Assembly: GCA_045599645.1 (NCBI GenBank)
Contig: JAZRWI010000080.1
Coordinates: forward strand, 15,735-79,734
DNA length: 64,000 nt
Direction: 5' to 3'
Source of the DNA: Candidatus Avigastranaerophilus sp.
GTDB lineage: Bacteria > Muiribacteriota > Ozemobacteria > Ozemobacterales > Ozemobacteraceae
A program made the position numbers and the translations under genes. Of the stretch, positions 7,620-23,760 are shown in pieces. The stretch's first letter is position 1; each line of letters opens with the position of its first letter. The notes beneath the pieces were generated by a model. That model searched no databases, was not told where the DNA came from, and saw only the letters and a program-made list of their open reading frames with translations.

Positions 7620-7915
7620 TTATTATAGCAACAAAACCAGCCACAGAAATATCAAAGAACCCTGACGGCTGGGTTGTTTATATTTTAGAATGCTGTGATG
7701 GTTCTTTATATACTGGTATTACCAACAACCTGGACAACAGGATAAAAACCCATAACAGCGGCAAAGGTGCTAAGTTCACAAGAGCGCGACGTCCTGTGGT
7801 ATTACGTTATTTTGAAAACGTTGAAAGCAAAAGTGCTGCTCTTAAGCGGGAAATAGCTATAAAAAAGCTATCCCGCACCCAAAAACTGGAGCTTATTCAG
7901 CGACGATCCTTGTAG
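7616..7915 (+). CDS. GIY-YIG nuclease-family small protein (UPF0213/YhbQ-like)
   Basis: GWVVYILECCDGSLYTGITNNLDNRIKTHNSGKGAKFTRARRP is the GIY-YIG motif. The start overlaps the cyclase stop by 4 nt. Confidence 0.75.
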   Translation: MIIIATKPATEISKNPDGWVVYILECCDGSLYTGITNNLDNRIKTHNSGKGAKFTRARRPVVLRYFENVESKSAALKREIAIKKLSRTQKLELIQRRSL

Positions 7916-8724
7916 AAATCAGGCTCGAAATATTCATACCATTCTTCCTTCTGATTGGAAAGACCTACTCTCCAAGCTGTTAGAGGACCTAATTCAAGCT
8001 GTTCAAAATCTCTATAGGTTTCGCGCATAATATCATTAGGAAAATGCTTTTTAGCAAATTCAGCCTGAGTTTTATTGTGATCTGCTGCCAGATACAAATC
8101 CCAGGCACCAAAAATATGAAGTATTTCGTGAGCAATATTCTGCGGTGTGAAATCTTCGTATTTTCCATCTTTATACTTGGTGTATAAAATAGCCCAATCA
8201 AGGAATTTACCTTTATCTGCGCCATAATAGCATGGCTGAGAATAACCGGAACCATTTTTGTTCGCCAGGAATATCACAATAAAATTCTGGCAATCAGGAT
8301 TATCAAGCTTTGCCTTTTCTTCGTATGCATACATGTTTTTGTAGCCTAAGGCATTAAAAATCTTTATTCCAACCTGAAAATGCTCGCTATCAGAGCCTGT
8401 TCCGTCATGAATATTATCAATAATTATATCTTCATCTAAGCCTACGAAGCTGTTTTTAAACTCAATTTTATCCGCTTCATATTTATGAGCCTGCTTTTGA
8501 AGCCAATTTTCAGCCATTTCAAGATTAGGAATATACTTCTTCTTATCAGCAGCGTCCCATTTGCTTTCAGATACAAATACTGTCAGGATATGGGTTTTGC
8601 CGGTCAGGGTCTTAGCCATTCCTGTATTTGCTTCTTCATAAAAGCAAGGCTCTGAGAAGCAGATATTTGAATCAAAGGCCATAAAGCAGGCTAAGACCAA
8701 CAAAAAACAATTGATTTTTCCCAT
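7897..8724 (-). CDS. Secreted putative zinc metallopeptidase (HExxH)
   Basis: N-terminal signal peptide and an HEILHIFGAWDLY motif near the C-terminus. The family is not identifiable by eye. Confidence 0.4.
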   Translation of the reverse strand: MGKINCFLLVLACFMAFDSNICFSEPCFYEEANTGMAKTLTGKTHILTVFVSESKWDAADKKKYIPNLEMAENWLQKQAHKYEADKIEFKNSFVGLDEDIIIDNIHDGTGSDSEHFQVGIKIFNALGYKNMYAYEEKAKLDNPDCQNFIVIFLANKNGSGYSQPCYYGADKGKFLDWAILYTKYKDGKYEDFTPQNIAHEILHIFGAWDLYLAADHNKTQAEFAKKHFPNDIMRETYRDFEQLELGPLTAWRVGLSNQKEEWYEYFEPDFYKDRR

Positions 8725-8733
8725 ATATTATCT

Positions 8734-9624
8734 TTATTCACCAAGCTTAAAAATCTGGCGAAGCTTAGCTGAATTAATCATATCAGCAGCTTTTAAATCA
8801 GCCCAGTCATATTTTGTGTTAAAACCGGTTTCAAGACTTTCACGATTTTCTGGATTATATAATGCTGCTCTTACCAGACAGCTTTGGATAAGAACCTGTG
8901 ACATCTGCATTGCAGCTATGAAATTATCAGGGTCTATTTCAGTCAGCTTCACACCATTTTTATTCAAAGCTTCAGCAGGATACGTAAAGCAAGAAGCATT
9001 ATCAGCTATTTCTGAGTTAATCTTAATATTATCAAAAACAACGGTTGAATCACCCATATCAATAGTTAAGCTTTTAAATGGGAATGCAGATTTTGTATCA
9101 ATAACAGTAGTTTCCTTAGATTTCTGGCTGGTATAGCCAGTAATTTCAAGCAAACCATCTTTTTCAGTAGCAGCCATATTATCATCAGCCGGCTTGGCTA
9201 AATCAAGAAAGCTGACATTAATAGCATTTTCCTTTTCCTGTTCATTTGGTCTGTGATAGAAAACATTTGCTACAAGCTGAGCATTTTCATATATAATCTT
9301 AACAATATTAATATTGCCTGTGGCAAGCCATATCTGTTTAGACATAGCATCATAGAAAAGAGCCTTGTCATCTCTTATAACAAGAACAGGGGTTTTATCC
9401 TTATCAAAAAGATTAAAGCCAAAATGACCGCTGCTTTTATACCAGTTCTGAACTGTATAAACATCACCTTCATTTGTTATAGACAGCTGAAAATGGAAGG
9501 TTTCAATGTTTTTATCAGGTATGGAAATATTTGGAACATATTTTTCAAGAAGTTCCATTGGTGTCTGTGCATAGCAAGAGCATGCTGTAAAAATCAATAA
9601 AAATAAGGCGATAAATCTTTTCAT
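8734..9624 (-). CDS. Secreted lipoprotein, hypothetical
   Basis: I placed the start at the ATG at 9624 (MKRFIALFLLIFTACSC, lipobox FTAC, GGAGAA RBS 5 nt upstream); the ORF track extended it to 9714. There is a 9-nt gap to the downstream metallopeptidase gene. Confidence 0.45.
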   Translation of the reverse strand: MKRFIALFLLIFTACSCYAQTPMELLEKYVPNISIPDKNIETFHFQLSITNEGDVYTVQNWYKSSGHFGFNLFDKDKTPVLVIRDDKALFYDAMSKQIWLATGNINIVKIIYENAQLVANVFYHRPNEQEKENAINVSFLDLAKPADDNMAATEKDGLLEITGYTSQKSKETTVIDTKSAFPFKSLTIDMGDSTVVFDNIKINSEIADNASCFTYPAEALNKNGVKLTEIDPDNFIAAMQMSQVLIQSCLVRAALYNPENRESLETGFNTKYDWADLKAADMINSAKLRQIFKLGE

Positions 9625-9800
9625 GTTTTCTCCTAATATACAAGCGTTTGCCATACATCTATAATTCTTACAAAAGGGTCTATTTGTCAAGATTTGACTT
9701 TTATTATCCGGCAATTTATACTTAATTAATCAAGAAAAATGCGAGATTTAATAAGGCATGAAATGCTGGTATAACCTCAAGGTTCGTTGCCAGCCGTCAT

Positions 9801-10943
9801 TTGAGGAGTGGAGAATTGGCTGAAGGAAAACCATTTATTAAATGTGGCCAGCTTTTCGACCATACAGACGCTTTTGAATATACCCCTGAAACAGAGCAGC
9901 TTTTCGTTGATGCTATGAACGAAGCTTTGCGCTGGCATGCAAACCACTGTCCAGATTACAAAGCTTTTCTAGCAGAAAATGGCCTTGCTGATTTAAAACA
10001 AAAATATTCACCAGAACAGATTCCACCTCTATTAGTAAGCATATTCAAGGAATTTAAACTGGCTTCTGTGCCTGATAAGCAGGTAAAAATAGAATTAACC
10101 TCCTCAGAAACAGGTGGACGCAAAAGTGCAATAATACTGGATGCACGCTCATATAAAAGGATACTGAAAATAGTAGAAAATATTTTTGGTTCCCTTGGTC
10201 TGGTGGACCACAAGCAGAAGGTTAATTATCTTTGCTTCACATATGACCCCAAATACGCTGTCAATGTAGGAACAGCTTTTTCCTACAAGCTTTTGACAGA
10301 TTTAACAGCTCATAGAAGTGTTTATTATGCTATTAGATTCGATAAAAAGACAGGCGAATTCAATTTCGACGCAGAAGCAGCAGCAAAAAAACTGATTGAT
10401 TTCAGCACCCACCCTGAACCAGTCAGAATACTTGGTTTTCCTGCTTATCTATGGCAGGTCTGTGACTGGTTGGAAAAGAACAACATGGATTTGAAGCTTG
10501 GCAAGAAATCCTTCATCATCACTGGTGGCGGTTGGAAAATCCATAAAGACCTTGAAGTTACCAAGGATATTTTCAAAGATCGTGTAAATAAGATTCTTGG
10601 TATCCCACATGAAAATGTCAGAGACCTGTTCGGCATGGTTGAGCACGGCATTCCTTATGTTGACTGTGAATGTGGAAGGTTGCATGTTCCGATTTATGCC
10701 AGAGCAATGTGCGTAGACCCGGAAACCTTGTTCCAGGTAGAAGATGGCGAAGAGGGTCTTCTCTATCTTATGACGCCCTATATTTCAAGCTATCCGTCAA
10801 TATCACTGCTAACTACAGATAAAGCAGTCATAGAAGATAACTGCCCATGTGGCAGACCTGGCAAAACCTTCAGAATTATCGGAAGAGCCGGAATGGCAAA
10901 GCATAAAGGCTGCGCAATCAATGCACTGGAGCTTCTAAAATGA
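9801..10943 (+). CDS. LuxE-like acyl-protein synthetase (ANL/PaaK-like adenylating enzyme)
   Basis: ~380 aa with a P-loop-like TSSETGGRKS, GGGWK, and the C-terminal CPCGRPGKTFRIIGRAG motif typical of PaaK/LuxE. The exact start is uncertain. Confidence 0.55.
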   Translation: MRSGELAEGKPFIKCGQLFDHTDAFEYTPETEQLFVDAMNEALRWHANHCPDYKAFLAENGLADLKQKYSPEQIPPLLVSIFKEFKLASVPDKQVKIELTSSETGGRKSAIILDARSYKRILKIVENIFGSLGLVDHKQKVNYLCFTYDPKYAVNVGTAFSYKLLTDLTAHRSVYYAIRFDKKTGEFNFDAEAAAKKLIDFSTHPEPVRILGFPAYLWQVCDWLEKNNMDLKLGKKSFIITGGGWKIHKDLEVTKDIFKDRVNKILGIPHENVRDLFGMVEHGIPYVDCECGRLHVPIYARAMCVDPETLFQVEDGEEGLLYLMTPYISSYPSISLLTTDKAVIEDNCPCGRPGKTFRIIGRAGMAKHKGCAINALELLK

Positions 10944-12793
10944 TCAATAACAAGATTTTTGTTTTCGGACAGGAATTAGCATCAGATTGGCTTTGTGCAG
11001 AAACAGCAAACGAGCTGCTTGACGAAGCCTATGAAAAGTCTAAGCTTGCAGCTGAACCGGACATAGAATGCATATTAGAAATTTTTGATAATGTATCAAA
11101 AGCCTGGTCTGACCCAGAGTATAAGCTACGTAAAAAAGCAGTAGAAATATTGCCACAGCTCACTTCATTCAGTGCAGAAATGATTGAGGAAGGTTTAAAT
11201 GTTGTCAGCTCAATATGTTCAAGAAAGAGTCTTGAAAAGCGTTTATACAGTGAAATAGGCAGTCTGGAAGCCTTAAATGAAGGCGAAGAACGACCACATA
11301 ACAATTATAGATTAAAAGCACAACCAAGAGGAGTAGTTCTTCATATTAGCACTGGTAATGTGTTTGTAGACACTGTTGATAGTCTGATTTCCGGAATCAT
11401 AACAAAGAATGCCAACATTCTTAAAATGTCAGGAACGAACCCTGTTTTCCCTGTTCTGTTCCTGGAAAGCATAAAAGAGTTTGACCCAGCAGGTATCATA
11501 TGGGCAAATCAGGCAATTGTAGCCTGGAATGGCGGTAATAGAGCCATAGAAGATGTTCTTTTTAACGGAAAGCTGACACTTGTGTTCTGGGGCGAACGCA
11601 AAGCCTTAGATTCATTAAAGCCACGTTTAGGCCGACAAGTTAAGCTTATAGAAAACGAACCAAGGTATTCCTTTGCTGTAATAGAAGGCAAATGTCTGAA
11701 ACCCAATGCTCCAGAAAATGTTGTCAGAGGTCTGGCCTTAGATGTTTGCCGATGGAATCAGCAAGCCTGCTCATCTCCTCATGTGGTTTATGTCATAGAC
11801 AAGGATTTAAAAACATCACACCAGCTGATAGAAGCTCTGTTCGATGAAATGATTCAAGTCAGCGAGGAACTGCCTCACGGTAATTTAAGCTTTGATGAAA
11901 AGGTAGAAATCCGTAAAGTCCGCGAAATAGCACGCATGATGCAGGTTCGCAGTGAAGGAAGACTTGTTTGCCCGGAAGAATTTGATTTCACACTTGTTCT
12001 GGAATATGACCCTGCTTTCAAGATTTCATGCCTGAACAGAACATTATTCATAAAGCGTGTAACAAATATTGAAGACTTAATAGAGCAGCTTTCACCTATA
12101 TCTGATTATCTTCAGACAGCTGGTTTATGTTGTTCAACAGATTTTACAAATATCTTTGAGCATGAATTATTCAATCTTGGCGTTAAAAGAATCACAGATA
12201 TTGGTGGAATGACCGAAAGCCATGAAGGAGCCCCGCGTGAAGGTTATTTCATTTTACGTGACCTGGTTGAATGGGTTGCCGTTGAATATAAGAACGATTA
12301 TCAATCAAGAATAGAACGACTTCTTAAGAACCTCTGTTCTTCACCATATTACTGCCAGTTAATTGAAGAAGCAGGCGGCTGTAGTTATAACAGCTTTCTC
12401 AAGCTTCCTTTCCTTGATAAAGACAGTTTTTACAGAATTTCTCCACCAGAAGCCAACAACATTCCGAGCAGGCCTATGGCAGATACCTGTATCGATACAG
12501 GACTCGTAGGCTGGCAATGCGCCCACATTCCTGGAACTATACATCATGTTCCAGAGGAGTATTGCTATGTCGAAATTATTTCTACAAAAGACCAATCAAT
12601 TATTGAAGATGATACTCCGGGGGAAATAGTTGTAACCAACTTAGACCATAAGCTTCAGCCAATTATCCGCTATAGAACCGGTGACCTAGGCCGTTGGGTA
12701 GAAATAGAAAAATGCCCTTGCGGTTTTACAGGTAAATCCTTTGAATTGCTTGGCCGCTGTGACGACCTGATTGTAGAAAGAACAATCAAATAA
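10940..12793 (+). CDS. LuxC-like acyl-CoA reductase (ALDH-like fold) fused to a short PaaK-like C-terminal module
   Basis: The N-terminal ~440 aa are ALDH/LuxC-like with candidate catalytic Cys in WNQQACSSPH. The C-terminal ~175 aa carry LPFLDKDSFYRI...IRYRTGDLG...CPCGFTGKSFELLGRCDDL but no P-loop. It overlaps the upstream gene by 4 nt. Confidence 0.5.
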   Translation: MINNKIFVFGQELASDWLCAETANELLDEAYEKSKLAAEPDIECILEIFDNVSKAWSDPEYKLRKKAVEILPQLTSFSAEMIEEGLNVVSSICSRKSLEKRLYSEIGSLEALNEGEERPHNNYRLKAQPRGVVLHISTGNVFVDTVDSLISGIITKNANILKMSGTNPVFPVLFLESIKEFDPAGIIWANQAIVAWNGGNRAIEDVLFNGKLTLVFWGERKALDSLKPRLGRQVKLIENEPRYSFAVIEGKCLKPNAPENVVRGLALDVCRWNQQACSSPHVVYVIDKDLKTSHQLIEALFDEMIQVSEELPHGNLSFDEKVEIRKVREIARMMQVRSEGRLVCPEEFDFTLVLEYDPAFKISCLNRTLFIKRVTNIEDLIEQLSPISDYLQTAGLCCSTDFTNIFEHELFNLGVKRITDIGGMTESHEGAPREGYFILRDLVEWVAVEYKNDYQSRIERLLKNLCSSPYYCQLIEEAGGCSYNSFLKLPFLDKDSFYRISPPEANNIPSRPMADTCIDTGLVGWQCAHIPGTIHHVPEEYCYVEIISTKDQSIIEDDTPGEIVVTNLDHKLQPIIRYRTGDLGRWVEIEKCPCGFTGKSFELLGRCDDLIVERTIK

Positions 12794-14090
12794 AAATAAA
12801 ATAAGTTATCATTTCGGCTACCAGCATTGTTGCCCACACGCCACTCAGACCCCATAACTTCGATAGCAGCAGCAAAACCGGTATAGTGATTATTCCACCT
12901 CGGCAAGCAGAAAGCCAGAAGGACTTTCCAGGCTTGTCGCACGAAGCCAGAATCTGAGTATTAACAATATTACCTCCCCAGAAAATCATAGCCGTGAAAA
13001 AGATTTTTATTCCTAAGTCTGCTATGCCTATCAATTCAATATTATTTTCAAAATTAAATATATTGATTATTGGAGTTCGGAATACAAAAAGAATAAAATA
13101 AAGTAATATACTGATTGCTTTTGTAAGAGTATATGCCCAACCGGATATTTTTTTAACAAGCATCTGGTCCCCTTCACCATAGGAATAACTGACAAGGGGC
13201 TGAATACCCTGAGAAACGCCTGTAAATATAGCTGTAACCACAATAGCAATATTAGCAATAATACCATAAGCAGCAACACCAATATTTCCTGAGCATTTCA
13301 GGACAACCAGATTAAAAAATATCATTACAAAACCAGTAGAAAACTCAGTAATAAAGGAAGGGAAGCCTAGCGTTAAGATATCAATTATCCTTGAGAAATC
13401 AATTTTTGGTATTTCAAACTCAAATCTACCAAGATAAAAGCAATAAATTATTATCTGGAAGCCCAATGCAATAGCAGGAGCAACGCCAGAAGCCAAGGCA
13501 GCTCCCCAGATTCCGTAATTCAAAATATAAATGAAAATATAATCAAGAACCAGATTGCTAAAGCTGTTTATCAAAGCAGCTGTCATAGCAAACTTAGGAT
13601 GACCGGCGGCTCTATAAATACAGATCCCAAACCCATTAAGAATAATCATTAAACTGAATAAAAAGATAGTGCTTATGTATGTGCTGGAATAAGGCAGCAG
13701 TTTATCATCAGCACCCATCAGTTTCATAAGCTCATTACTGTTTAAATATCCGATGAATCCTATAAAACATCCCAAAACCACTGAAGTAAATACCCCAAGA
13801 ATAATTGCCTGTACAGCAGAATCCTTTCGCTTCTCACCTAAAAGTATTGAATATCTGACTGATGTTCCCATGCCAAGCATAATGCCAGTAGCTGACACAA
13901 GAAAGAAGAATGGTAAAGCGATATTTAAGCCGGCAAGAGCATTGAGACCAATTTTGGTAGCTATAAAATATGTATCAAAAAGAACATAAGCGGAAACACC
14001 GAGCATGCTCAAAACGTTCAATGATACATATTTTATAAAATCATGAAAAATATCTGAAAATTCTTTTTGATTGCTCAATATAGCTACCAA
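12786..14090 (-). CDS. MATE-family efflux transporter
   Basis: 434 aa, ~12 TM helices, overall MATE-like composition and size. Its end overlaps the LuxC-like stop by 8 nt (convergent). Confidence 0.7.
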   Translation of the reverse strand: MVAILSNQKEFSDIFHDFIKYVSLNVLSMLGVSAYVLFDTYFIATKIGLNALAGLNIALPFFFLVSATGIMLGMGTSVRYSILLGEKRKDSAVQAIILGVFTSVVLGCFIGFIGYLNSNELMKLMGADDKLLPYSSTYISTIFLFSLMIILNGFGICIYRAAGHPKFAMTAALINSFSNLVLDYIFIYILNYGIWGAALASGVAPAIALGFQIIIYCFYLGRFEFEIPKIDFSRIIDILTLGFPSFITEFSTGFVMIFFNLVVLKCSGNIGVAAYGIIANIAIVVTAIFTGVSQGIQPLVSYSYGEGDQMLVKKISGWAYTLTKAISILLYFILFVFRTPIINIFNFENNIELIGIADLGIKIFFTAMIFWGGNIVNTQILASCDKPGKSFWLSACRGGIITIPVLLLLSKLWGLSGVWATMLVAEMITYFIFI

Positions 14091-14115: not shown

Positions 14116-15249
14116 TCATTTCTTTTTATAAGTTGCAAATATTGCAGATGCAGGAAGCTTCTGAATTAACCAGTCTTTTTCGCCTTTTTCTTCAGCAAGC
14201 TTGATAATAGAATCTATTATCTTGTCTGCTTCTTCGTTTTTAACGCACATAATAGCATTTTCGTAGGTTGATGTTTTATTATCTGCACGTGGCTCATCAG
14301 CCAAACTGATATATCTCATGTTTATAAGAGTAGCACCAGCTGCACCGCCATCCATAGCTGTCTGAATATAATCATCGCTATGGCCGACAGGACAAATAAA
14401 ACTAATTTCCCTATGAGAGAAGGTTGTAGTTGAATTCAGAATTCTTTCACTACTATTTTCAAATGTGCGCTTTCGCCAATCAGTATTTTGCTTAAGATCA
14501 TCGATAGCAGCCACAATCTGTTCCATGCTGGCTGTCTGTGTTTGATTTCCAACTCTAATAAGCGGATCTACCAAGCCACAATTTACATGGGTCTGATACA
14601 TAAATCCACCACCAGGTCTATTCAGCTTACCTTTTTCAATAAGCATATTCTGCAAGCCATTGGCATCAAATGAAGGAACCAGCAGATAAGTCAATTCTTT
14701 TTCTGGTGTAATAGTGATTCTAAGCAAACCTAATCTATCTCTGATACCTGTTCCTTTGCCAAGGCTGACTGTTGGCAAACCAGCCCCGTGCCTCAATGCA
14801 ACCTTAGAAATATTATCACCTGTTGCAGAAAAGGACTGAATACCGGTAATCATTGTTAAATCATGAATAACATTACCCTTACACAAGCCTTCATCCATTT
14901 TCAAATCAGGAACGTCACTGCCACCTATTTCGAAAATATCCTGAGCCAGAACACTGCCTCGCCCCGGAATCCTTAAATCAAGCTTGTTAATCAGGTATAA
15001 TGCAACTGCTTCAGCTTTATCAAAAGCAACAATAAACCTGATAATATCGGTCGGGGAATCTTCAATCGGGTCTTCAAAACCAAGAATAGTCCAAATTGTA
15101 GGTTTTTCGTGAATACGAACAGTTCTTGCACTTTCAGCAAATACCGATTGGCAGCCAATAGACTTTATAACTTCCAAAGCCTGTTTCTGAAGGGCATGAT
15201 GAATCATCAGGGTAATACGTGATTTCTTACCATATTCTGTTTTATTCAT
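14116..15249 (-). CDS. Protein with two P-II (GlnB)-like domains flanking a central ~170-aa domain
   Basis: Residues ~10-100 and ~280-377 show P-II-like beta-alpha-beta-beta-alpha-beta patterning (e.g. ISFICPVGHSDDYIQTAMDGGAAGATLINMRY...ENAIMCVKNEEADKIIDSIIKLA). 4-nt overlap with the upstream membrane gene and a 25-nt gap to MATE. Confidence 0.4.
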   Translation of the reverse strand: MNKTEYGKKSRITLMIHHALQKQALEVIKSIGCQSVFAESARTVRIHEKPTIWTILGFEDPIEDSPTDIIRFIVAFDKAEAVALYLINKLDLRIPGRGSVLAQDIFEIGGSDVPDLKMDEGLCKGNVIHDLTMITGIQSFSATGDNISKVALRHGAGLPTVSLGKGTGIRDRLGLLRITITPEKELTYLLVPSFDANGLQNMLIEKGKLNRPGGGFMYQTHVNCGLVDPLIRVGNQTQTASMEQIVAAIDDLKQNTDWRKRTFENSSERILNSTTTFSHREISFICPVGHSDDYIQTAMDGGAAGATLINMRYISLADEPRADNKTSTYENAIMCVKNEEADKIIDSIIKLAEEKGEKDWLIQKLPASAIFATYKKK

Positions 15250-17396
15250 TTCTTAACCTCCCCATTATCACCCAGATGCCTATTCTGGCGTTTTCTGATT
15301 CTAATACCAAAAGCAAGCATTGTTATAATCGGGAACAAAGATGCCATTGAAACAATACCAAAGCCGTCAACAACATTGAGACCACCGCCAATACCAAGAC
15401 CCATGGCAAGAACGAGAGGAACAGTGATAGGACCGGTTGTAACTCCGCCTGAATCCCATGCAAGTCCAGTAAATTCCTCATCACAGAAATGTGTTAGAAC
15501 AAGCAAGGCTATATATCCAGGTATCAGTAACCAACAGGCAGGAATGTCATAAATAAGCTTTAACACTCCTACCAGAAGTCCTATTCCAACACCTATAGAA
15601 ACAGTTCCTACGACCTTTTTGCGTTTAACAGTACCAACAGTCATTTCTTCAACGGTAATACCCAAAGCATTAAGAGCAGGTTCTGCAACCGTTGAACCAT
15701 AGCCCATGCCGAAAGCAAAAAGACAAATCAGGAATATGCCTAATCTTGAAACCTTAGTTTTTGTAAAAAATCTAGCAACCTTTGTTGTCCATAAAACATC
15801 TTTCTGCTGAATGTATTCATAGGTTCCAGTTTCTTCGTTATACTTTGTTTTATCGAAAGCCACTGTTTTCAGATTATTTGACTTATCAGAGAAATAAAAA
15901 TACTTAGTCAGCTTACCTTGGCCATTGTAAGCAGATATCATAGAATTCTTATCAAAATTCTTAATAAGAACGCGTCCTTCTTCCTGGGTTTCACTCTTAT
16001 ACATGGTTGGAAGATTTTTACCAATCTGATTTCCTAAGGAAGACAGGCCTAACTGAATACCTGTTGTAAGTATTGCCATACCAAACAACGCTAATACTAT
16101 GCCAAGAATTACCTCATCAGCCTTTTTCAGTTTATCCCTAAGCAGGAATACAAGAACAAGCAGCAGTAATAAAACCAGAGGAACGACAGCAAATATAGCA
16201 TTATAAGCTTCTTCCTTGAATATTTTCTTTATATCATACTTATTGTTATCATATTCCCTATCATATTCTGCTGTTACTTTATTGATTTGTTCATCAGTTT
16301 CATACTCTTCTGCAATTTTTTGAGAAATCAACTGCTTTTCTTCTTCATTGGCTTTTGTGCGCAACCAATCAGTAAGAGAAACTGTTCCTAATAGTTTTGG
16401 ATTGTTTTCTTTTTCATTTATCAGTGACAAAACAGCTGCATGATATTTTTCCTGGTCATTATAGTAAGAAATTCTGCCTGCAGATGTGCCTCTCTGAAAA
16501 GCCAATGACTGCATAGCTTCTTCTGTCTTCATAGTTTCCAAGGCTTTTGCCCTATATGCCTGAGAGAAGAATTCTATTTCTGACATTGGCTTTGGTGTCG
16601 TTGTATTCAGATACATACCCATTACAAACACACCTAAAACAGGGAATAGAGATGCAAGTGTAACAACACCAAGTCCTGAAGCAGCAGCGCTGTTATTTTT
16701 ACCACTAGCCTTGCTAATACCAATACCCATGGCTAATACAAGAGGAACCGTAACCGGACCTGTTGTAACACCACCTGTATCCCAAGCAAGATTAATGATA
16801 TATTTCAGGTTTTCATCAAATGCAAAAACACCGGACATTACCAGCAATATAGGAACTAGAAAATATAGAAAAGGCTTGAGGGCCATTCCGAAATAAAAAC
16901 GAGCCATACCGGCAGCAACAGCTAAGCCAACGCCGCCACCGACAGCCCAAACAAGAAGGTTATTGTCTACTTCCAAAAATCTGTATAACAGCGGTGTAGC
17001 CCAAGGAGTCACACCTTCGCCTGCCATTCTCAAGGTAGATATGGACGGTTCTGCAAGGGTAGCACCAAAACCCAGCAAAAGCCCAAATATCATTATTACC
17101 CAGAAATTTGTTTTTTGTGGCAATTGAACACCGACTCTGTCGCCAAGTGGCATCAAACCAAGGAAAAGTCCTTCAAGGAAAGAAGCAAGACCCAAAACAA
17201 CGAGACCAACACCTATCGCCATCTGAATAGCAGATTCTGGGGCTGATTGTAATACTATAATCTTGAAAGCAATCAAGTATATAATAATAAAAGCGACAGC
17301 CTTTATCTGCTCTTTCAGCTTTATTTTTATATAATTAAGTACCATTGGTATTGATACTTTCAGAGGGAACTTCAAGTTTCTCGTTTTTGGCGCCAT
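15246..17396 (-). CDS. Membrane protein with internally duplicated DUF1538-like halves and a ~270-aa soluble/coiled-coil insert
   Basis: The two halves share DTGGVTTGPVTVPLVLAMGIGIS / DSGGVTTGPITVPLVLAMGLGIG and ASLFPV/ASLFPI motifs. The central region (~res 265-540) is charged and K/E-rich. Confidence 0.45.
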   Translation of the reverse strand: MAPKTRNLKFPLKVSIPMVLNYIKIKLKEQIKAVAFIIIYLIAFKIIVLQSAPESAIQMAIGVGLVVLGLASFLEGLFLGLMPLGDRVGVQLPQKTNFWVIMIFGLLLGFGATLAEPSISTLRMAGEGVTPWATPLLYRFLEVDNNLLVWAVGGGVGLAVAAGMARFYFGMALKPFLYFLVPILLVMSGVFAFDENLKYIINLAWDTGGVTTGPVTVPLVLAMGIGISKASGKNNSAAASGLGVVTLASLFPVLGVFVMGMYLNTTTPKPMSEIEFFSQAYRAKALETMKTEEAMQSLAFQRGTSAGRISYYNDQEKYHAAVLSLINEKENNPKLLGTVSLTDWLRTKANEEEKQLISQKIAEEYETDEQINKVTAEYDREYDNNKYDIKKIFKEEAYNAIFAVVPLVLLLLLVLVFLLRDKLKKADEVILGIVLALFGMAILTTGIQLGLSSLGNQIGKNLPTMYKSETQEEGRVLIKNFDKNSMISAYNGQGKLTKYFYFSDKSNNLKTVAFDKTKYNEETGTYEYIQQKDVLWTTKVARFFTKTKVSRLGIFLICLFAFGMGYGSTVAEPALNALGITVEEMTVGTVKRKKVVGTVSIGVGIGLLVGVLKLIYDIPACWLLIPGYIALLVLTHFCDEEFTGLAWDSGGVTTGPITVPLVLAMGLGIGGGLNVVDGFGIVSMASLFPIITMLAFGIRIRKRQNRHLGDNGEVKK

Positions 17397-19505: not shown

Positions 19506-20411
19506 TTGTTTATAAAAGAGCTTATAGAGCAGTATTTAAGTTCTTTAGGGAAAGAACGGAACCTGTCACCTCAAACTATCAGAGGCTATCAGAATGACCT
19601 CAATTTTTTCGAACAGTGGTTGACCGCCAACAATATTAACGAAATAAGCAAAGCGGAAGCTCTCACACCAACCCAAATACGTGGTTTCTGGGCTGGTCGC
19701 AGAAAAGGCGGCTTATGTGCTGCCAGCATGCGAAGAGGACAATCTGCTTTACGCGGCCTATTCAAGTATGCCATGCGTCACGGTCTGGCAAATAAGAATC
19801 CAGTCGACATGATGGATTCTCCGAAGGTACAGCGTCCATTACCCAAAGCTCTCAGTCAGGAAGACGTGAATATGCTTCTAAATTCACCAGACTCCACTAC
19901 CCTTTTGGGAATGCGAGACAAAGCCATCTTAGAATTGCTTTACGGAAGCGGACTCCGTGTTTCAGAAGTTTCCAATTTAACCTCTGAAAACATCAACCTT
20001 GAAGCTCAGACTGTAATAGTAAGAGAAGGCAAAGGCGGCAAAGACAGAGTCGTTCCACTGACTCCTCTTTCCTGCCAGGCTATTTCTCTTTATATAAACA
20101 ATAGATTTTCCACAAAGCCGGAATGGCGCGAAGAAAAGCACATATTCCTGAACCACCTTGGCACACCTCTGACAACCAGAAGCATCGCCAGATTAATAGA
20201 TAAGTATGCGAGACAGCTGGCAATGATGATGAATATAACACCTCATCAGTTCAGACACAGCTTCGCCACTCACCTATTAAACAATGGCGCCGATATCAGA
20301 GCAGTCCAGGAAATGCTTGGACACGCAAGTCTCTCAACCACACAGATTTATACCCGTATAAGCAAGGAAAAGCTTCTACAGACCTATAGATCCTGTCACC
20401 CGAGAGCTTAA
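19506..20411 (+). CDS. Tyrosine site-specific recombinase XerC/XerD family
   Basis: C-terminal catalytic region RHSFATHLLNNGADIRAVQEMLGHASLSTTQIYTRI with R..H..R..Y residues. Located immediately upstream of flgB as in Firmicute codV-...-flgB synteny. Confidence 0.85.
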   Translation: MFIKELIEQYLSSLGKERNLSPQTIRGYQNDLNFFEQWLTANNINEISKAEALTPTQIRGFWAGRRKGGLCAASMRRGQSALRGLFKYAMRHGLANKNPVDMMDSPKVQRPLPKALSQEDVNMLLNSPDSTTLLGMRDKAILELLYGSGLRVSEVSNLTSENINLEAQTVIVREGKGGKDRVVPLTPLSCQAISLYINNRFSTKPEWREEKHIFLNHLGTPLTTRSIARLIDKYARQLAMMMNITPHQFRHSFATHLLNNGADIRAVQEMLGHASLSTTQIYTRISKEKLLQTYRSCHPRA

Positions 20412-20465
20412 GAAGACCTTTTTGAGATTATTTTCCAGAGATAACTACAAAAACAAAATATTTAC

Positions 20466-20493
20466 TAAATGTTTGTTAGATAGTTGTCGATAT
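20466..20493 (+). promoter_or_regulatory. Candidate sigma-28 (FliA/SigD)-type promoter for the flgB operon: TAAA-N16-GTCGATAT
   Basis: Compared by eye with the TAAA-N15-GCCGATAT consensus. It lies ~35 nt upstream of the flgB RBS (GGGAG). Confidence 0.35.
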
Positions 20494-20526
20494 TTATAGA
20501 AGAATAGAAAACAGGGAGTAAAGATT

Positions 20527-20949
20527 ATGTTTGAAAGACTGACTGGGACTGCGACTTTTAACCTTCTCGGCAAGGGTCTTGATGTTGCTGCAAAACGCAA
20601 CGCCGTTATATCCAACAATATCGCTAACGTAAACACTCCCTTATTCAAGCGACAGATTGTTACATTTGAAGATGAAATGGCAAAGGTTTTCGATGGCCAC
20701 GTAGACATTACCGGCCGCAGAGAAGACGACCGCCATATTCCCATAGGCGAAATCGATTACATGAACATTGGTCCTACAACAATCAAAGATCGTATCCATA
20801 TTATGAGAAACGACAAGAACAATGTAGATATCGATGTAGAAATGTCAGATTTGGCCAAGAACACAATGACCTATCAGATTCACGCTAATAGATTGGCTCA
20901 GATGTTTTCACAGCTAAACGATGTTATAAGTAGAGGTGCTAAGTCCTGA
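20527..20949 (+). CDS. flgB: Flagellar basal-body rod protein FlgB
   Basis: N-terminal SNNIANVNTPLFKRQ rod-protein motif, in flagellar operon context. Confidence 0.85.
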   Translation: MFERLTGTATFNLLGKGLDVAAKRNAVISNNIANVNTPLFKRQIVTFEDEMAKVFDGHVDITGRREDDRHIPIGEIDYMNIGPTTIKDRIHIMRNDKNNVDIDVEMSDLAKNTMTYQIHANRLAQMFSQLNDVISRGAKS

Positions 20950-21389
20950 TGAGTATGTTCAGAAGTATTGATATTTCAGCTAGTGGTCTTACAGCAGAAC
21001 GTCTACGCATGGATGTTATTTCAAACAACATCGCTAACGTAAACACTACCAGAACAGCAGACGGTGGTCCTTTCAGAAGAAAGATGGCCATTTTTGAAGC
21101 CCGTCATCATTACGGCCAGCGCGCATACCAGGATAGAATCAATCCTCAGGAACCAGGCCGCGGCGTTAGAGTTAATGCCATTATGGATGATATGACTCCA
21201 TTCAAGCTCGAATACGATCCAAGTCATCCAGATGCTGACCCAGATGGCTATGTAAGAAGACCAAACATTGATATCGTTCACGAAATGGTTGATATGATTA
21301 CAGCCACTCGTGCATACGAAGCCAATGTTACCTGCATCAGTTCTTCTAAGGACATAACCAATGCAGCTCTCAACATCAGTTCCAAGTAA
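20949..21389 (+). CDS. flgC: Flagellar basal-body rod protein FlgC
   Basis: SNNIANVNTTRT motif and C-terminal rod domain TATRAYEAN. Confidence 0.85.
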   Translation: MSMFRSIDISASGLTAERLRMDVISNNIANVNTTRTADGGPFRRKMAIFEARHHYGQRAYQDRINPQEPGRGVRVNAIMDDMTPFKLEYDPSHPDADPDGYVRRPNIDIVHEMVDMITATRAYEANVTCISSSKDITNAALNISSK

Positions 21390-21436
21390 TTAGCAGATAT
21401 TATAGATTATAGATAAAATAAGTTAGGGTAAACAAA

Positions 21437-21739
21437 ATGAGAATTAACGAAAACCATCCGTTGCATGGCGTTTTGAGTGATAAGCCCAGACGACCTTCCA
21501 CCAACGCAAAAGAGCAATGGGGCTCTTTTCTTGATACTTTACAAACCGCTATTGGTGAAGTAGACACTTTGGGCAAAGAATCAGAAAAACTCACACAAGA
21601 CGCAGTATTGGGCAGAGTTGAAAACTTGCATGACGTTATGATTGCTGCCGAAAAGGCTAAGACCGCCATGAACCTCACTATTGAAGTTCGCGGAAAGGTT
21701 TTGGAAGCCTATAAGGAAGTAATGCGCATGAATTTTTAA
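21437..21739 (+). CDS. fliE: Flagellar hook-basal body protein FliE
   Basis: 100 aa with a C-terminal ...VRGKVLEAYKEVMRMNF FliE signature. Confidence 0.8.
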   Translation: MRINENHPLHGVLSDKPRRPSTNAKEQWGSFLDTLQTAIGEVDTLGKESEKLTQDAVLGRVENLHDVMIAAEKAKTAMNLTIEVRGKVLEAYKEVMRMNF

Positions 21740-21861
21740 TTAGGCTCTTTACATATTTAGCTAGGTGTACTATAAATAAATAGATAATATAACAAACAGC
21801 TCCTGTAAAAAAATTATACATAGAACAAATCCACAGGAGTAAATTAGGGAGTGCAAGCAAA

Positions 21862-23760
21862 ATGAACGATTACCTCAGGCAACTGTGGGAACCGATTTCA
21901 AAGCTGACCAAAAAACAGCTCATTATTTTAGGGAGCGTTGTTGGTCTCGTTGTCATCGGCATTATCACAGCCACGATGTGGGGCACAGAAAAAGAGTATG
22001 TTCCTCTTTTCAAGGAACAATTGAAACTGGAAGACGCCAGTAAAATAGACGCTAAGCTTACCGAATTAGGCTTAGACCACAAAATTGGTTCAACCGCCAA
22101 TGAAATACTTGTTCCACTTACAGATAAAAGTAATGTATTGCTCAAGCTTGCCGAAGAAAAACTACTTCCTGAAGCCGATGCCGGTTGGAAGGAACTTGTT
22201 GATAACCGCTCCCTATTTCAAGGCACTACCCAGCAGGAATTCGACCTCAATTTTGTAAGAGGTCTCCAGGTTGAATTAGAAAAAACCTTAAAGAGAATGG
22301 ACCCTATCGAAGATGCAAGGGTCACCATTGTTAAGCCTAAAAAGCAGGTATTTGCAGAAGACCAGAAGGAATCCTCTGCAAGCGTAGTTATTAAGCTTAA
22401 ACCAGGCATGGTTGTAGACCAGAACCAGATCAGAGCTATCAGAGATTTAATCTGCTCTGCAGTTGAAGGACTTGAACCAGGCAATGTTAAGATTTCAGAC
22501 ACAACAGCCAGAGACTTAACCAGAATCATCGAAGATGAAGAATTAATGAGCCTGGATAAAGCCAAAACCATCCAGATGAGACTTACCAGAGACAATGAAA
22601 AGCATCTCAAGGGCAAGCTCCAGAGCATGCTTGAACAGATTCTCGGTGATGGTAAGGCTATTGTAAGCGTAAGTCTTGAAATGGACTTTGACCAGAAGGA
22701 AGCAGTCAGTGACGTAGTAGTTCCTCCAGAAGGTCTGGACCACGGTATTACAATTTCTGAAAAAACAGAAAGCGAACAATACGAAGGCCGCGATTTGATT
22801 GAAGACGGCGAACCAGGCGTAAACTCCAACCTTCCTCCAGGATCACCGGCATACCCTGGAACAGAAAATGGTGTATTAAACAAATACAAGCGTGACGGTG
22901 TAATTAAGAACTATGAAGTCACCAAATCAAAGGAAAAATTCGTTAAAGAGCAGGGCACAATCAAGCGTATGACTGCCTCGGTCATTATTGATGGCGACCC
23001 TGCAGAATATAAATCTATTGAAGACCAGATTCTTGCTATTGCTCAGACCGCCATTGGTTATAACAAACTACGTGGCGATAAAATGACCCTCTTAGTATAT
23101 AAATTCAGAAATGAAGATCTTGAACGCGCAAGACTTGAAATGGAAAATGAGAAGGAGCGGGAAAAACAAATGTTTATGATTATTATGGGACTGCTTTGTG
23201 GCTTCCCAATACTTCTCGGTATCATCTTTATGGTAGCCAGAATATCCAGAATGCGAGCTATGGTTCAAGAACAGAAGCGTCTTGAAGCCGCTGCAGCTGA
23301 AGCTGAAAGAATCCGTAAAGAAAGAGAAAAAGCTCTCCTTGAACAGAATGAACGCCAGTGGAAGGAATATGAACGTCGTTTCAGCGATACTAGAAACTGG
23401 TTCCCGGAAATCAAGGACGAAATGGAAAAGAAACGCAAGGTTCAGGACCTCAAGTTGGAAGCATGCAAATATGCTGCTGAACATGATGGTCTTCCAGCCG
23501 ATTTCGAAGAAATGTGCCCGGAAGAAAAATATGCTTATCGTGAAGCATTCCAGAAGAAGGCAGATGGTAAACTCGAAGACGAAATCAAGAGACTTGAAGA
23601 CATTATTGCTAAGCGCAATGCTGACAGACAGGATGAACTCAATAGTCTTGAAGCAGCTGCTAATGCTCGTGATGCTCTTGAAAAGCGTATCAGAGACCTT
23701 ATTACCGAACAGCCTGAAAATGCAATTCAGGTTATCAAGACCATGATTAACAGCAAATAA
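21862..23760 (+). CDS. fliF: Flagellar M-ring protein FliF (with extended K/E-rich coiled-coil C-terminus)
   Basis: N-terminal TM helix, periplasmic ring domains, a second TM at ~res 440-460, then ~170 aa of charged coiled coil. Confidence 0.85.
   Translation: MNDYLRQLWEPISKLTKKQLIILGSVVGLVVIGIITATMWGTEKEYVPLFKEQLKLEDASKIDAKLTELGLDHKIGSTANEILVPLTDKSNVLLKLAEEKLLPEADAGWKELVDNRSLFQGTTQQEFDLNFVRGLQVELEKTLKRMDPIEDARVTIVKPKKQVFAEDQKESSASVVIKLKPGMVVDQNQIRAIRDLICSAVEGLEPGNVKISDTTARDLTRIIEDEELMSLDKAKTIQMRLTRDNEKHLKGKLQSMLEQILGDGKAIVSVSLEMDFDQKEAVSDVVVPPEGLDHGITISEKTESEQYEGRDLIEDGEPGVNSNLPPGSPAYPGTENGVLNKYKRDGVIKNYEVTKSKEKFVKEQGTIKRMTASVIIDGDPAEYKSIEDQILAIAQTAIGYNKLRGDKMTLLVYKFRNEDLERARLEMENEKEREKQMFMIIMGLLCGFPILLGIIFMVARISRMRAMVQEQKRLEAAAAEAERIRKEREKALLEQNERQWKEYERRFSDTRNWFPEIKDEMEKKRKVQDLKLEACKYAAEHDGLPADFEEMCPEEKYAYREAFQKKADGKLEDEIKRLEDIIAKRNADRQDELNSLEAAANARDALEKRIRDLITEQPENAIQVIKTMINSK

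What the first reader, a model, noticed from the sequence alone, without database searches (positions are those of the whole stretch)
9801..12793. LuxE-like / LuxC-like (fatty-acid-reductase-type) gene pair with a degenerate PaaK-like tail on the reductase
ORF1 has the hallmarks of LuxE/PaaK-type adenylate-forming acyl-protein synthetases (P-loop-like TSSETGG, C-terminal CPCGR..G..R..G). ORF2 has an ALDH/LuxC-like reductase body (candidate catalytic Cys in QQACSSPH) and then a ~175-aa tail. The tail repeats PaaK/LuxE N- and C-terminal motifs (LPFLDKDSFYRI; IRYRTGDLG; CPCGFTGKSFELLGRCDDL) but lacks the ATP P-loop, as if a second synthetase had been truncated and fused. LuxCE homologues in non-luminous bacteria have unknown function (possibly aldehyde or alcohol production from activated acids). 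They are convergently adjacent to a MATE exporter.
Basis: partly seen in the sequence, partly recalled or inferred. Interest (0 to 1): 0.5.

Follow-up and report, generated by a model that had tools for sequence, protein, structure and literature searches.

The report
Decaying LuxE–LuxC operon with gutted ligase
This is a fatty-acid-reductase-like gene pair whose reductase carries the leftovers of a once-complete acid-activating domain, and relatives show it is a snapshot of a repeated evolutionary loss of enzyme activity rather than a new enzyme design.

Summary
ORF1 matches Pfam LuxE (E 8e-49). ORF2 matches Pfam LuxC (E 8e-77) and has a roughly 160-aa tail that matches PaaK-type ligases only in part.

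The tail is not a new truncated fusion. About 100 homologues, mostly from Riflebacteria, are roughly 865-aa LuxC::PaaK fusions. They sit in a conserved operon: tandem-GNAT acyltransferase, LuxE, LuxC::PaaK. Compared with a syntenic relative (82% nucleotide identity), the window has three deletions:
- about 1.1 kb, removing the GNAT gene;
- 151 codons, removing the ATP-binding core and P-loop of the PaaK domain;
- 98 codons, removing the PaaK C-terminal lid.

Both deletions inside ORF2 are in frame and flanked by microhomology.

The window also has a Gly-to-Glu change in the LuxE P-loop, unique among 94 homologues. Its LuxC domain differs at 11 of 126 positions that are invariant in 20 intact homologues; the two closest relatives differ at 0 and 1. 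Both catalytic cysteines survive.

Related gut lineages lack the GNAT gene, the PaaK domain, the LuxE P-loop and both cysteines. They still keep the LuxE/LuxC pair under purifying selection (dN/dS 0.11–0.19).

The window is therefore an independent, intermediate stage of that decay. Aldehyde production here is doubtful.

The parts
9758..9823 (+). Remnant of the deleted tandem-GNAT gene. Only the last 21 codons plus the stop remain (MKCWYNLKVRCQPSFEEWRIG*), preceded by in-frame stops. The deletion junction lies at about 9739-9757.
   Evidence: blastn against L001 shows window 9739 aligning to L001 7688 and window 9757 aligning to L001 8818, so about 1.1 kb is missing. Junction sequences and translations are. 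tblastn finds only GNAT residues 358-393 anywhere in the window.
9816..10943 (+). LuxE-type acyl-protein synthetase, 375 aa from the conserved TTG start (the mechanical ORF starts at 9801). The ORF is intact. The Lys of GGGWK, the Arg of GRAG and the C-terminal KGC cysteine (codon at 10911) are retained.
   Evidence: Pfam LuxE, E 8e-49. It aligns to P. phosphoreum LuxE 7xc6_E at E 3e-36. It is 93% identical to the L001 orthologue, and the window branch has dN/dS of about 0.08.
10107..10109 (+). LuxE P-loop codon GAA (Glu98), where relatives have Gly: TSSGTGG has become TSSETGG.
   Evidence: Among 94 homologues this position is Gly in 80, Asn in 10 (all with degenerate loops), and Glu only in the window. 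Canonical LuxE has TSSGTSG at this position.
10940..12304 (+). LuxC-type reductase domain of ORF2 (residues 1-455). The catalytic Cys277 (codon 11768-11770) is retained. Eleven residues differ at positions invariant in intact relatives: L49F, G104S, A138T, G144D, A145T, D167N, G219E, G240E, D273N, G427S, H433R.
   Evidence: Pfam LuxC, E 8e-77. It aligns to 7xc6_A with Cys277 matching the catalytic Cys. The invariant-column test gives 11/126, against 0 in L001 and 1 in L002.
12305..12487 (+). Remnant 1 of the PaaK-like domain (residues 456 to about 516). This is the N-terminal helical segment up to just before the missing P-loop. The junction of the 453-nt (151-codon) in-frame deletion lies at about 12485-12487, with CCT(G) microhomology.
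   Evidence: Alignment to P0002/P0003; blastn offsets; junction sequence. The window branch shows 18 nonsynonymous changes here, against 5 in L001 and 3 in L002.
12488..12775 (+). Remnant 2 of the PaaK-like domain (residues about 517-612). This is the beta-barrel end of the ligase N-terminal domain, with the YRTGD, CPCG and GRCDD motifs. It ends at the junction of the 294-nt (98-codon) in-frame deletion that removed the C-terminal lid domain.
   Evidence: PDB 4r1l residues 250-336, E 2e-11. Alignment. Junction with ATAG/TAGA microhomology. The deleted part corresponds to P0002 residues 764-861, matching its PF14535 hit at 766-863.
12776..12793 (+). Last five codons (ERTIK) plus the stop codon. 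These correspond to the ancestral ERATK and stop of the full-length gene.
   Evidence: DNA comparison with L001 12584-12601.
12786..14090 (-). Convergent MATE efflux gene. It is a neighbour only and is not considered part of the system.
   Evidence: Pfam MatE, E 3e-35. It is present at this position in L001 and L007 but absent in L002, L003 and L006.

Best explanation
The pair is what remains of a conserved three-gene operon: a tandem-GNAT N-acyltransferase, a LuxE-type acyl-protein synthetase, and a LuxC reductase fused to a complete PaaK-type adenylating domain.

Shown here: three microhomology-flanked deletions have occurred in this genome. One removed the GNAT gene. One removed the ATP-binding core of the PaaK domain, 151 codons including the P-loop. 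One removed its C-terminal lid, 98 codons. The 'degenerate tail' is the two pieces left over, a helical N-terminal segment and the beta-barrel end of the ligase N-domain. It cannot adenylate anything. The LuxE P-loop glycine is now glutamate, and the LuxC domain has collected substitutions at positions invariant in intact relatives. Two of these, G219E and G240E, hit glycines shared with Photobacterium LuxC. The two acyl-carrying cysteines are still present.

Inferred: the locus has lost, or is losing, its ancestral chemistry. It is moving toward the state fixed in related gut lineages, where a catalytically dead LuxE/LuxC pair is kept for some non-catalytic role.

Speculative ancestral chemistry: the PaaK domain makes an acyl-CoA, the GNAT transfers the acyl group to an amine or amino acid, and LuxE/LuxC activate a carboxylate and reduce it to an aldehyde.
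For: Family norm. In the homologue list for ORF2, 120 listed of 132 with E <= 0.001, most entries are 860-900 aa with LuxC + AMP-binding + AMP-binding_C_2. The closest, P0002, is 85% identical and carries a complete PaaK match (NF041878 positions 54-427 of 427).

Deletions. Protein alignment, blastn synteny with L001 and L002 and junction sequences define deletions of about 1.1 kb, 453 nt and 294 nt. The intact form was assembled three times independently with identical proteins (L001, L010, L011).

Operon conservation. The GNAT-LuxE-LuxC::PaaK order is seen in L001, L002, L003, L006 and about 20 further loci. The GNAT gene and the PaaK domain are either both present (26 loci) or both absent (L007, L008/L009/L026, L031, L035, L046) in every complete Riflebacteria locus.

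Catalytic decay in the window. The P-loop G98E is unique among 94 homologues. The window differs at 11/126 invariant LuxC columns, against 0 in L001, 1 in L002 and 0-3 in most others. On the window branch, ORF2 has 70 nonsynonymous changes against 39 on the L001 branch.

Parallel end state. Relatives with LuxC only have lost the catalytic Cys and the AGN, WGG, ENGP and APHEG motifs. Their LuxE partners have lost the P-loop, the GGGWK Lys and the KGC Cys. These pairs are nevertheless under purifying selection: dN/dS 0.14 and 0.11 at dS about 0.3, and 0.19 at dS 0.13.

Independence. The window groups with intact L001 in 88% of bootstraps, while L007 plus the dead clade groups at 99.5%.

Other checks. 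No copy of the GNAT gene or of the missing PaaK parts exists elsewhere in the window. The upstream protein is a tandem GNAT fold (AF2 pLDDT 89.6; Foldseek).
Against: Both ORFs are intact. LuxE shows no rate acceleration on the window branch (dN/dS 0.083, 18 versus 15 nonsynonymous changes). Both acyl-carrying cysteines and the LuxE Lys/Arg pair are retained.

For Photobacterium LuxC, only the catalytic Cys is reported as essential, and the His442 mutant was active (PMC9157457, PMC12041015). Some of the 11 LuxC changes may therefore be harmless.

The second tail remnant is still constrained on the window branch (6 nonsynonymous against 22 synonymous changes, dN/dS 0.078). That fits either a recent deletion or a retained role.

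The deletions rest on a single assembly. No independent contig with the junctions was found, and reads could not be checked.

No biochemical test of the intact operon was found in the papers searched, so the ancestral chemistry is inference.
Confidence: 0.75

Rival explanations
1. The pair is still a working LuxCE-type fatty-acid reductase. LuxE adenylates an acid and carries it as a thioester. The LuxC domain reduces it to an aldehyde. The tail is a harmless vestige. This is essentially the first reader's functional reading.
For: Both ORFs are intact with strong LuxE and LuxC HMM matches. The catalytic Cys277 of LuxC and the C-terminal KGC Cys, the GGGWK Lys and the GRAG Arg of LuxE are retained. 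Branch dN/dS values are low: 0.083 for LuxE and 0.156 for the LuxC domain. Only the Cys is reported as essential in LuxC (PMC12041015).
Against: The P-loop glycine conserved from Photobacterium LuxE to this family is Glu only here. G219E and G240E hit glycines shared with canonical LuxC. The window has 11/126 invariant-site changes, against 0-1 in its closest relatives. The GNAT partner is deleted. The same combination of losses ends in catalytic death in sister lineages.
Confidence: 0.17
2. The shortened tail is a new functional module. The retained helical segment and beta-barrel would serve, for example, as a docking or oligomerisation element for the LuxC-LuxE complex. On this view the in-frame deletions were selected.
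For: Both deletions are in frame. They remove almost exactly the Pfam AMP-binding start (P0002 residue 518) and the AMP-binding_C_2 domain (764-861 deleted, against the Pfam hit at 766-863). The second remnant has dN/dS of 0.078 on the window branch. AF2 models both remnants confidently, with pLDDT of about 87-93.
Against: Two in-frame deletions happen by chance one time in nine. The first remnant shows relaxed constraint (18 nonsynonymous changes against 3-5 in relatives). The remnant differs at 5/54 invariant PaaK columns. Sister lineages discard the whole domain. AF2 confidence comes from an alignment of intact homologues and does not show that the fragment folds. Only one genome has this form.
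Confidence: 0.06
3. The deletions are artefacts of metagenome assembly or binning, or belong to a minor variant. On this view the real organism has the intact three-gene operon.
For: The window form is known from one contig only (one search lists one member and one contig). It is not in the contig index. No other assembly with the junctions was found.
Against: Microhomologies of 3-4 nt do not cause assembler collapse. Misassembly cannot create the amino-acid substitutions at invariant sites or the P-loop change, and these point the same way as the deletions. All three operon deletions, plus an indel in the upstream neighbour gene, lie within about 4 kb (window 8655-12786) of the 14 kb aligned with L001, which is otherwise collinear.
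Confidence: 0.04

Closest known systems
LuxC-LuxE fatty acid reductase of luminous bacteria (Photobacterium phosphoreum, PDB 7XC6; PMC9157457)
   Same: It has the same two protein families in an adjacent gene pair. LuxE lacks the ligase lid domain and ends in a short KGC cysteine motif. LuxC carries the catalytic Cys in a QQAC context. Both align along their whole length.
   Different: Both score far below the NCBIfam equivalog cut-offs (138 against 550, and 120 against 750). There is no luxA, luxB or luxD. The gene order is E then C. The reductase is ancestrally fused to a PaaK-type ligase and partnered with a tandem GNAT. In the window the LuxE P-loop glycine is mutated and several conserved LuxC glycines are replaced.
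Unnamed tandem-GNAT / LuxE / LuxC::PaaK operon of Riflebacteria (Ozemobacteraceae) and relatives (for example P0002, P0003 and P0049 from Ca. Ozemobacter sibiricus); a larger variant occurs in Hippea alviniae and Desulfofustis limnaeus
   Same: The relationship is orthologous and syntenic: 82% nucleotide identity to L001 over about 14 kb, with the same flanking genes. LuxE is 93% identical and the LuxC domain 86% identical.
   Different: The window lacks the GNAT gene and 249 of the 411 residues of the PaaK domain. It also carries the P-loop and LuxC substitutions. No paper on this operon was found.
PaaK phenylacetate-CoA ligases (PDB 4R1L, 2Y27)
   Same: The tail remnants align to the PaaK N-terminal helices and to residues 250-336, which include the YRTGD and GRxDD motifs. 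The full-length relative matches the whole PaaK profile.
   Different: The P-loop, the Rossmann-like core and the C-terminal lid are deleted. The tail is not a ligase.
Catalytically dead LuxE/LuxC pairs in related gut or rumen Riflebacteria (P0033/L007; P0065/L008; L031, L035, L045, L046)
   Same: They sit in the same chromosomal neighbourhood and belong to the same gene family. They also lack the GNAT gene, and they show decay at the same motifs where the window has its substitutions.
   Different: They have lost the whole PaaK domain, both cysteines and the entire P-loop. The window still has both cysteines and two fragments of the domain.
luxC/luxE homologues in flagellin glycosylation islands of Aeromonas and Enterobacteriaceae (PMC7874193, PMC4875605)
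   Same: These are LuxC/LuxE pairs in non-luminous bacteria with proposed roles in making a lipid-like modification. The Riflebacteria operon often lies a few kb from flagellar genes.
   Different: Those islands carry ACP, FabG, pse genes and glycosyltransferases, and none of these is found here. They have no PaaK fusion or tandem GNAT. The proximity to flgB, flgC and fliE may be coincidental.

Membership tests
LuxE acyl-protein synthetase (Pfam PF04443) | Whole-length match to the family HMM above the gathering score | tested here: met
   166.9 bits against a cut-off of 24.9, covering profile positions 25-384 of 391. The match to 7xc6_E has E 3e-36.
LuxE acyl-protein synthetase (Pfam PF04443) | Intact phosphate-binding loop TSSGT(S/G)G for adenylation | tested here: not met
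   The window has TSSETGG. Gly is found in 80 of 94 homologues and in canonical LuxE, and Glu only in the window.
LuxE acyl-protein synthetase (Pfam PF04443) | No ligase lid domain; a short C-terminal motif with the acyl-carrying Cys (TRxxKGCxLS), plus the Lys238/Arg355 equivalents | tested here: met
   GRAGMAKHKGCAINALELLK and ITGGGWK align to the 7xc6_E motifs. The features are defined in PMC9157457.
Bioluminescence LuxE / LuxC equivalogs (NCBIfam NF052244, NF052251) | Score above the curated equivalog cut-off | tested here: not met
   137.8 against 550, and 120.1 against 750. These are homologues, not the lux-operon enzymes.
LuxC acyl-thioester reductase (Pfam PF05893) | Whole-length HMM match and the catalytic cysteine | tested here: met
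   259 bits, covering profile positions 2-401 of 401. Cys277 in QQACSSPH aligns with the QQAC Cys of 7xc6_A.
LuxC acyl-thioester reductase (Pfam PF05893) | Conservation of the subfamily's invariant residues, used as a proxy for a working fold and cofactor site | tested here: inconclusive
   11 of 126 invariant columns are changed, including G219E and G240E, which are shared glycines with canonical LuxC. The effect on activity was not measured.
PaaK-type / ANL adenylate-forming ligase | P-loop (SGGTTG) and the Rossmann-like nucleotide-binding core | tested here: not met
   The 151 codons corresponding to P0002 residues about 518-668 are deleted. There is no Pfam AMP-binding hit in ORF2.
PaaK-type / ANL adenylate-forming ligase | C-terminal lid domain (PF14535) | tested here: not met
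   The 98 codons corresponding to P0002 residues 764-861 are deleted. Its PF14535 hit spans 766-863.
PaaK-type / ANL adenylate-forming ligase | YRTGD and GRxDD motifs at the end of the N-terminal domain | tested here: met
   IRYRTGDLG and LLGRCDDL align to 4r1l residues 250-336.
Riflebacteria GNAT-LuxE-LuxC::PaaK operon (unnamed) | Orthology and synteny with the full operon | tested here: met
   There is 75-82% nucleotide identity with L001 across the flanks and the operon. The window groups with L001 in 88% of bootstraps.
Riflebacteria GNAT-LuxE-LuxC::PaaK operon (unnamed) | Presence of all three components: tandem GNAT, LuxE and the full-length fusion | tested here: not met
   Only 21 codons of the GNAT gene remain. 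Only 165 of 411 PaaK residues are matched.

The most novel reading that the evidence does not exclude
In a gut-associated branch of Riflebacteria, the LuxE-LuxC pair has been converted from an enzyme system into a pair of pseudoenzymes. These are kept by purifying selection for a non-catalytic role, possibly as a stable complex. The loss of catalysis happened at least twice. The window is a rare intermediate caught between the two states. The strict co-loss of the tandem GNAT and the PaaK domain further implies that those two form one functional module of an uncharacterised small-molecule pathway. One candidate product is an N-acyl amino aldehyde made without an NRPS.
Probability: 0.35. Interest if true: 0.6.

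Novelty: new variant of a known kind. Interest (0 to 1): 0.42.

Why it matters
On its own the window locus is gene decay. It should not be annotated or mined as an aldehyde-forming enzyme pair.

Its value lies in what the comparison exposes. First, there is a widespread, unstudied operon that couples a tandem GNAT, a LuxE and a LuxC::PaaK fusion. Second, there is a natural series running from intact, through half-dismantled (this window), to catalytically dead but still conserved.

That series gives testable predictions about which parts work together, with the GNAT and PaaK domain lost as a unit. It also offers a clean case for studying how enzyme complexes become pseudoenzymes.

Tried and rejected
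- **Tail as an unrelated complete domain.** Rejected. It aligns only to PaaK-type ligases, and only to two non-contiguous parts of them.
- **MATE exporter as part of the system.** Rejected, because the adjacency is not conserved.
- **GNAT gene or missing PaaK parts moved elsewhere in the window.** Rejected by tblastn.
- **Independent confirmation of the deletion junctions.** The exact-protein look-up found nothing. A degenerate junction pattern and a search with the tail protein in JGI metagenomes also found nothing. This says only that the organism is not in those collections.
- **Regulatory RNA upstream.** Rfam and tRNA scans of the whole window found nothing.
- **Literature on the fusion, the operon or 'DVU_1553'.** Nothing relevant was found.
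- **Link to flagellin glycosylation islands.** Considered because luxC/luxE occur there. The window has no pse, ACP or glycosyltransferase genes in this region, so the idea was left as an unfollowed lead.
- **Placement of L007.** A first NJ tree (BLOSUM distances) placed L007 with the window clade, which would give three independent losses. Bootstrapping with Kimura distances places L007 with the dead clade at 99.5%. Only 'at least two' independent losses is claimed.
- **Pairwise dN/dS among distant dead pairs.** These comparisons were near saturation. Closer pairs were fetched instead.
Full report
**1. The observation**

The two ORFs exist as described: 9801..10943 and 10940..12793 on the + strand, overlapping by 4 nt. 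ORF1 matches Pfam LuxE along its whole length (E 8.2e-49). ORF2 residues 38-445 match Pfam LuxC (E 8.1e-77). The convergent downstream ORF is a MatE transporter.

With NCBIfam, both proteins score far below the cut-offs for the true bioluminescence enzymes. The ORF2 tail hits several PaaK-like ligase models, but only over profile positions about 245-330 of about 425. Against solved structures, the tail aligns to residues 250-336 of Bacteroides PaaK 4r1l (E 2e-11), and the N-terminal helices align weakly.

**2. What the tail is**

A homology search with ORF2 returned 132 proteins with E <= 0.001, of which 120 are listed. Most of those listed are 860-900 aa and carry LuxC + AMP-binding + AMP-binding_C_2. 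They come mostly from Candidatus Riflebacteria/Ozemobacteraceae, with a more distant group in Hippea, Desulfofustis and others.

The closest relatives are P0002 (866 aa, 85% identical) and P0003 (864 aa, 80%). The window protein aligns to them end to end except for two clean gaps:
- about 151 residues, starting just before the SGGTTG P-loop;
- about 98 residues, covering the C-terminal lid.

P0002 itself matches the whole PaaK profile (NF041878 positions 54-427 of 427) and Pfam AMP-binding_C_2 at residues 766-863.

At the DNA level the window is collinear with the contigs of P0002 (L001, about 82% identity) and P0003 (L002). The junctions show a 453-nt deletion with CCT(G) microhomology at window position about 12486. 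A 294-nt deletion with ATAG/TAGA microhomology lies at about 12775. That second deletion leaves the ancestral last five codons and the stop. Both deletions are in frame.

The fusion is therefore ancestral and the truncation is secondary.

**3. A third gene is missing**

In L001, L002, the Ozemobacter loci L003 and L006, and about 20 further genomes, LuxE is preceded by a roughly 393-aa gene whose stop overlaps the LuxE TTG start. AlphaFold (pLDDT 89.6) and Foldseek show it to be a tandem GNAT acyltransferase.

In the window, about 1.1 kb is missing. Only the last 21 codons remain (9758-9823), preceded by stop codons. The upstream intergenic region and the LuxE ribosome-binding site and TTG start (9816) are kept. 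tblastn finds no other copy of the GNAT gene or of the missing ligase parts in the 64 kb.

**4. Signs of catalytic decay in what is left**

The LuxE P-loop is TSSGTGG in relatives and TSSGTSG in Photobacterium LuxE. The window has TSSETGG, and this Glu is unique among 94 homologues. The Lys of GGGWK, the Arg of GRAG and the C-terminal KGC cysteine are all present. PMC9157457 identifies these as the adenylation pair and the acyl carrier.

In the LuxC domain the catalytic Cys277 is present. I ran an unbiased test on the 126 columns that are invariant in 20 intact Riflebacteria homologues. The window differs at 11 of them. L001 differs at 0, L002 at 1, and other members at 0-3, except the most basal one, L038, at 9. 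Two of the window's changes, G219E in WGG and G240E in ENGPRYSF, hit glycines also present in Photobacterium LuxC.

A three-taxon relative-rate count, with L002 as the reference, gives these numbers of nonsynonymous changes:

| Gene or region | Window branch | L001 branch |
|---|---|---|
| ORF2 (whole) | 70 | 39 |
| LuxE | 18 | 15 |
| First tail remnant | 18 | 5 |

Seven neighbouring genes show no such asymmetry. The second tail remnant remains constrained, with 6 nonsynonymous against 22 synonymous changes on the window branch.

**5. The same path, completed, in sister lineages**

Several gut or rumen-derived relatives sit in the same chromosomal neighbourhood, next to the pseudouridine synthase, HAMP, M50B, cyclase, GIY-YIG and DUF1538 genes. 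These are L007, L008/L009/L026, L031, L035, L045 and L046. They have LuxE plus a LuxC of only 450-470 aa, with no GNAT gene and no PaaK domain.

Their LuxC has lost the catalytic Cys (QQAYTSPH, QKSPYSPH and similar) and the AGN, WGG, ENGP and APHEG motifs. Their LuxE has lost the P-loop, the GGGWK lysine and the C-terminal cysteine. Cys296 is the one residue reported as essential in LuxC (PMC12041015), so these proteins cannot be reductases.

They are nevertheless intact in many assemblies and under purifying selection:

| Pair compared | Protein | dN/dS | dS |
|---|---|---|---|
| L008 vs L045 | LuxC | 0.14 | 0.34 |
| L008 vs L045 | LuxE | 0.11 | 0.30 |
| L046 vs L047 | LuxC | 0.19 | 0.13 |

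Across all complete Riflebacteria loci, the GNAT gene and the PaaK domain are either both present or both absent. In a bootstrapped NJ tree of LuxE plus LuxC, the window groups with intact L001 (88%), whereas L007 and the dead clade group together (99.5%). The window's loss is therefore independent. The losses happened at least twice.

**6. Interpretation**

*Shown:* the tail is a deletion remnant of a complete ligase domain and lacks everything needed for adenylation. The operon has lost its acyltransferase. The P-loop of the remaining synthetase and several conserved LuxC residues are altered.

*Inferred:* the ancestral pathway no longer runs in this organism. The locus is part-way to the catalytically dead but conserved LuxE/LuxC state.

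The strict co-loss suggests that the PaaK domain and the GNAT act as one module, an acyl-CoA maker and an acyl-CoA user. It further suggests that LuxE/LuxC catalysis becomes dispensable once that module is gone. A concrete but speculative scheme for the intact operon runs as follows:
- the PaaK domain forms an acyl-CoA;
- the tandem GNAT N-acylates an amine or amino acid;
- LuxE activates a carboxylate onto its C-terminal Cys;
- LuxC reduces the thioester to an aldehyde.

*Caveats.* Both ORFs are intact, and both cysteines and the Lys/Arg pair survive. LuxE shows no acceleration on the window branch. LuxC tolerates many substitutions. Residual reductase activity therefore cannot be excluded (rival, about 0.17).

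The AF2 model of ORF2 gives confident local structure for both tail remnants and low confidence only at the junction (residues 514-517) and the C-terminus. That reflects the alignment of intact homologues. It is not evidence that the fragment folds.

The deletions rest on one assembly. Even so, misassembly cannot explain the accompanying amino-acid changes.

**7. Comparison with what is known, and novelty**

The pair works like, and is homologous to, the LuxC-LuxE fatty-acid reductase (7XC6). It is not the lux enzyme: the equivalog cut-offs are not met and there is no luxA, luxB or luxD. It fails the P-loop criterion for an active LuxE and all the core criteria for a PaaK ligase.

I found no paper on LuxC::PaaK fusions, on the GNAT-LuxE-LuxC::PaaK operon, or on dead LuxE/LuxC pairs. 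luxC/luxE homologues are reported in flagellin glycosylation islands, but the gene content there is different.

I class the window feature as a new, degenerate variant of a known kind. Interest is moderate: the locus itself is decay, but it points to an unstudied operon and a natural enzyme-to-pseudoenzyme series.

Noticed in passing
L004 554-9700; L005 397-9697: In Hippea alviniae and Desulfofustis limnaeus the LuxE and LuxC::PaaK genes sit at the end of a longer same-strand cluster. Its order is: a HATPase_c_2 (anti-sigma-kinase-like) protein, fused to a GNAT domain in Hippea; an MFS transporter; a roughly 450-aa protein with no Pfam hit; a stand-alone AMP-binding ligase; LuxE; LuxC::PaaK. 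This looks like a larger version of the same unknown pathway, with its own exporter.
   Followed up: partly
L008 2642-8413 (also L009, L026): In the catalytically dead lineage, the LuxE/LuxC pair lies directly downstream of, and on the same strand as, the DUF1538 membrane protein and a 373-aa gene, with gaps of 14 nt or less. In the window the same two genes (14116-17396, - strand) are convergent with the pair. A new operon context for the dead pair may hint at its retained role.
   Followed up: no
window 7897-8724 (-) versus L001 5449-6588: The upstream neighbour is a secreted-looking protein with an HEILH (HExxH) motif. The L001 orthologue has about 100 extra residues, an acidic low-complexity stretch, where the window has a short signal-peptide-like N-terminus. 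This makes a fourth indel within the same 4-kb stretch.
   Followed up: partly
window 8734-9714 (-): The mechanical ORF of 326 aa, starting at a TTG, is probably too long. The L001 orthologue starts at MKR(I/F)IALFLLIFTACSC, a lipoprotein-like signal. That start would be the ATG at about 9624 in the window, giving 296 aa.
   Followed up: partly
L010, L011 (record titles): Two GTDB representative MAGs carry the intact operon with proteins identical to L001. They are titled 'Candidatus Avigastranaerophilus sp.' and 'uncultured Bacteroidales bacterium'. All other named relatives are Riflebacteria/Ozemobacteraceae. These labels, or the binning of these contigs, are probably wrong.
   Followed up: no
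window 19506-23760; L002 19185-22595; L003 80-4225; L006 1-4441: A xerC-like integrase gene and the start of a flagellar operon (flgB, flgC, fliE, fliF) lie a few kb from the LuxE/LuxC operon. In Ozemobacter they lie immediately next to it. luxC/luxE homologues occur in flagellin glycosylation islands of Aeromonas and Enterobacteriaceae (PMC7874193, PMC4875605). Whether the proximity means anything was not tested.
   Followed up: no
window 1-64000: There are no tRNA genes and no Rfam family matches at gathering score anywhere in the 64 kb. GC content is 36-42%, with a steadily falling cumulative GC skew across the window.
   Followed up: no
A3 alignment: P0184-P0204 and P0123: In the 93 LuxE homologues aligned with the window protein (alignment A3), a degenerate P-loop is seen only in P0123 and P0184-P0202/P0204. 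Contig lengths or fetched loci tie six of these to a short, PaaK-less LuxC: P0123-P0033, P0184-P0066, P0189-P0059, P0192-P0063, P0199-P0070 and P0200-P0064. P-loop state therefore looks like a simple marker for the dead form.
   Followed up: partly
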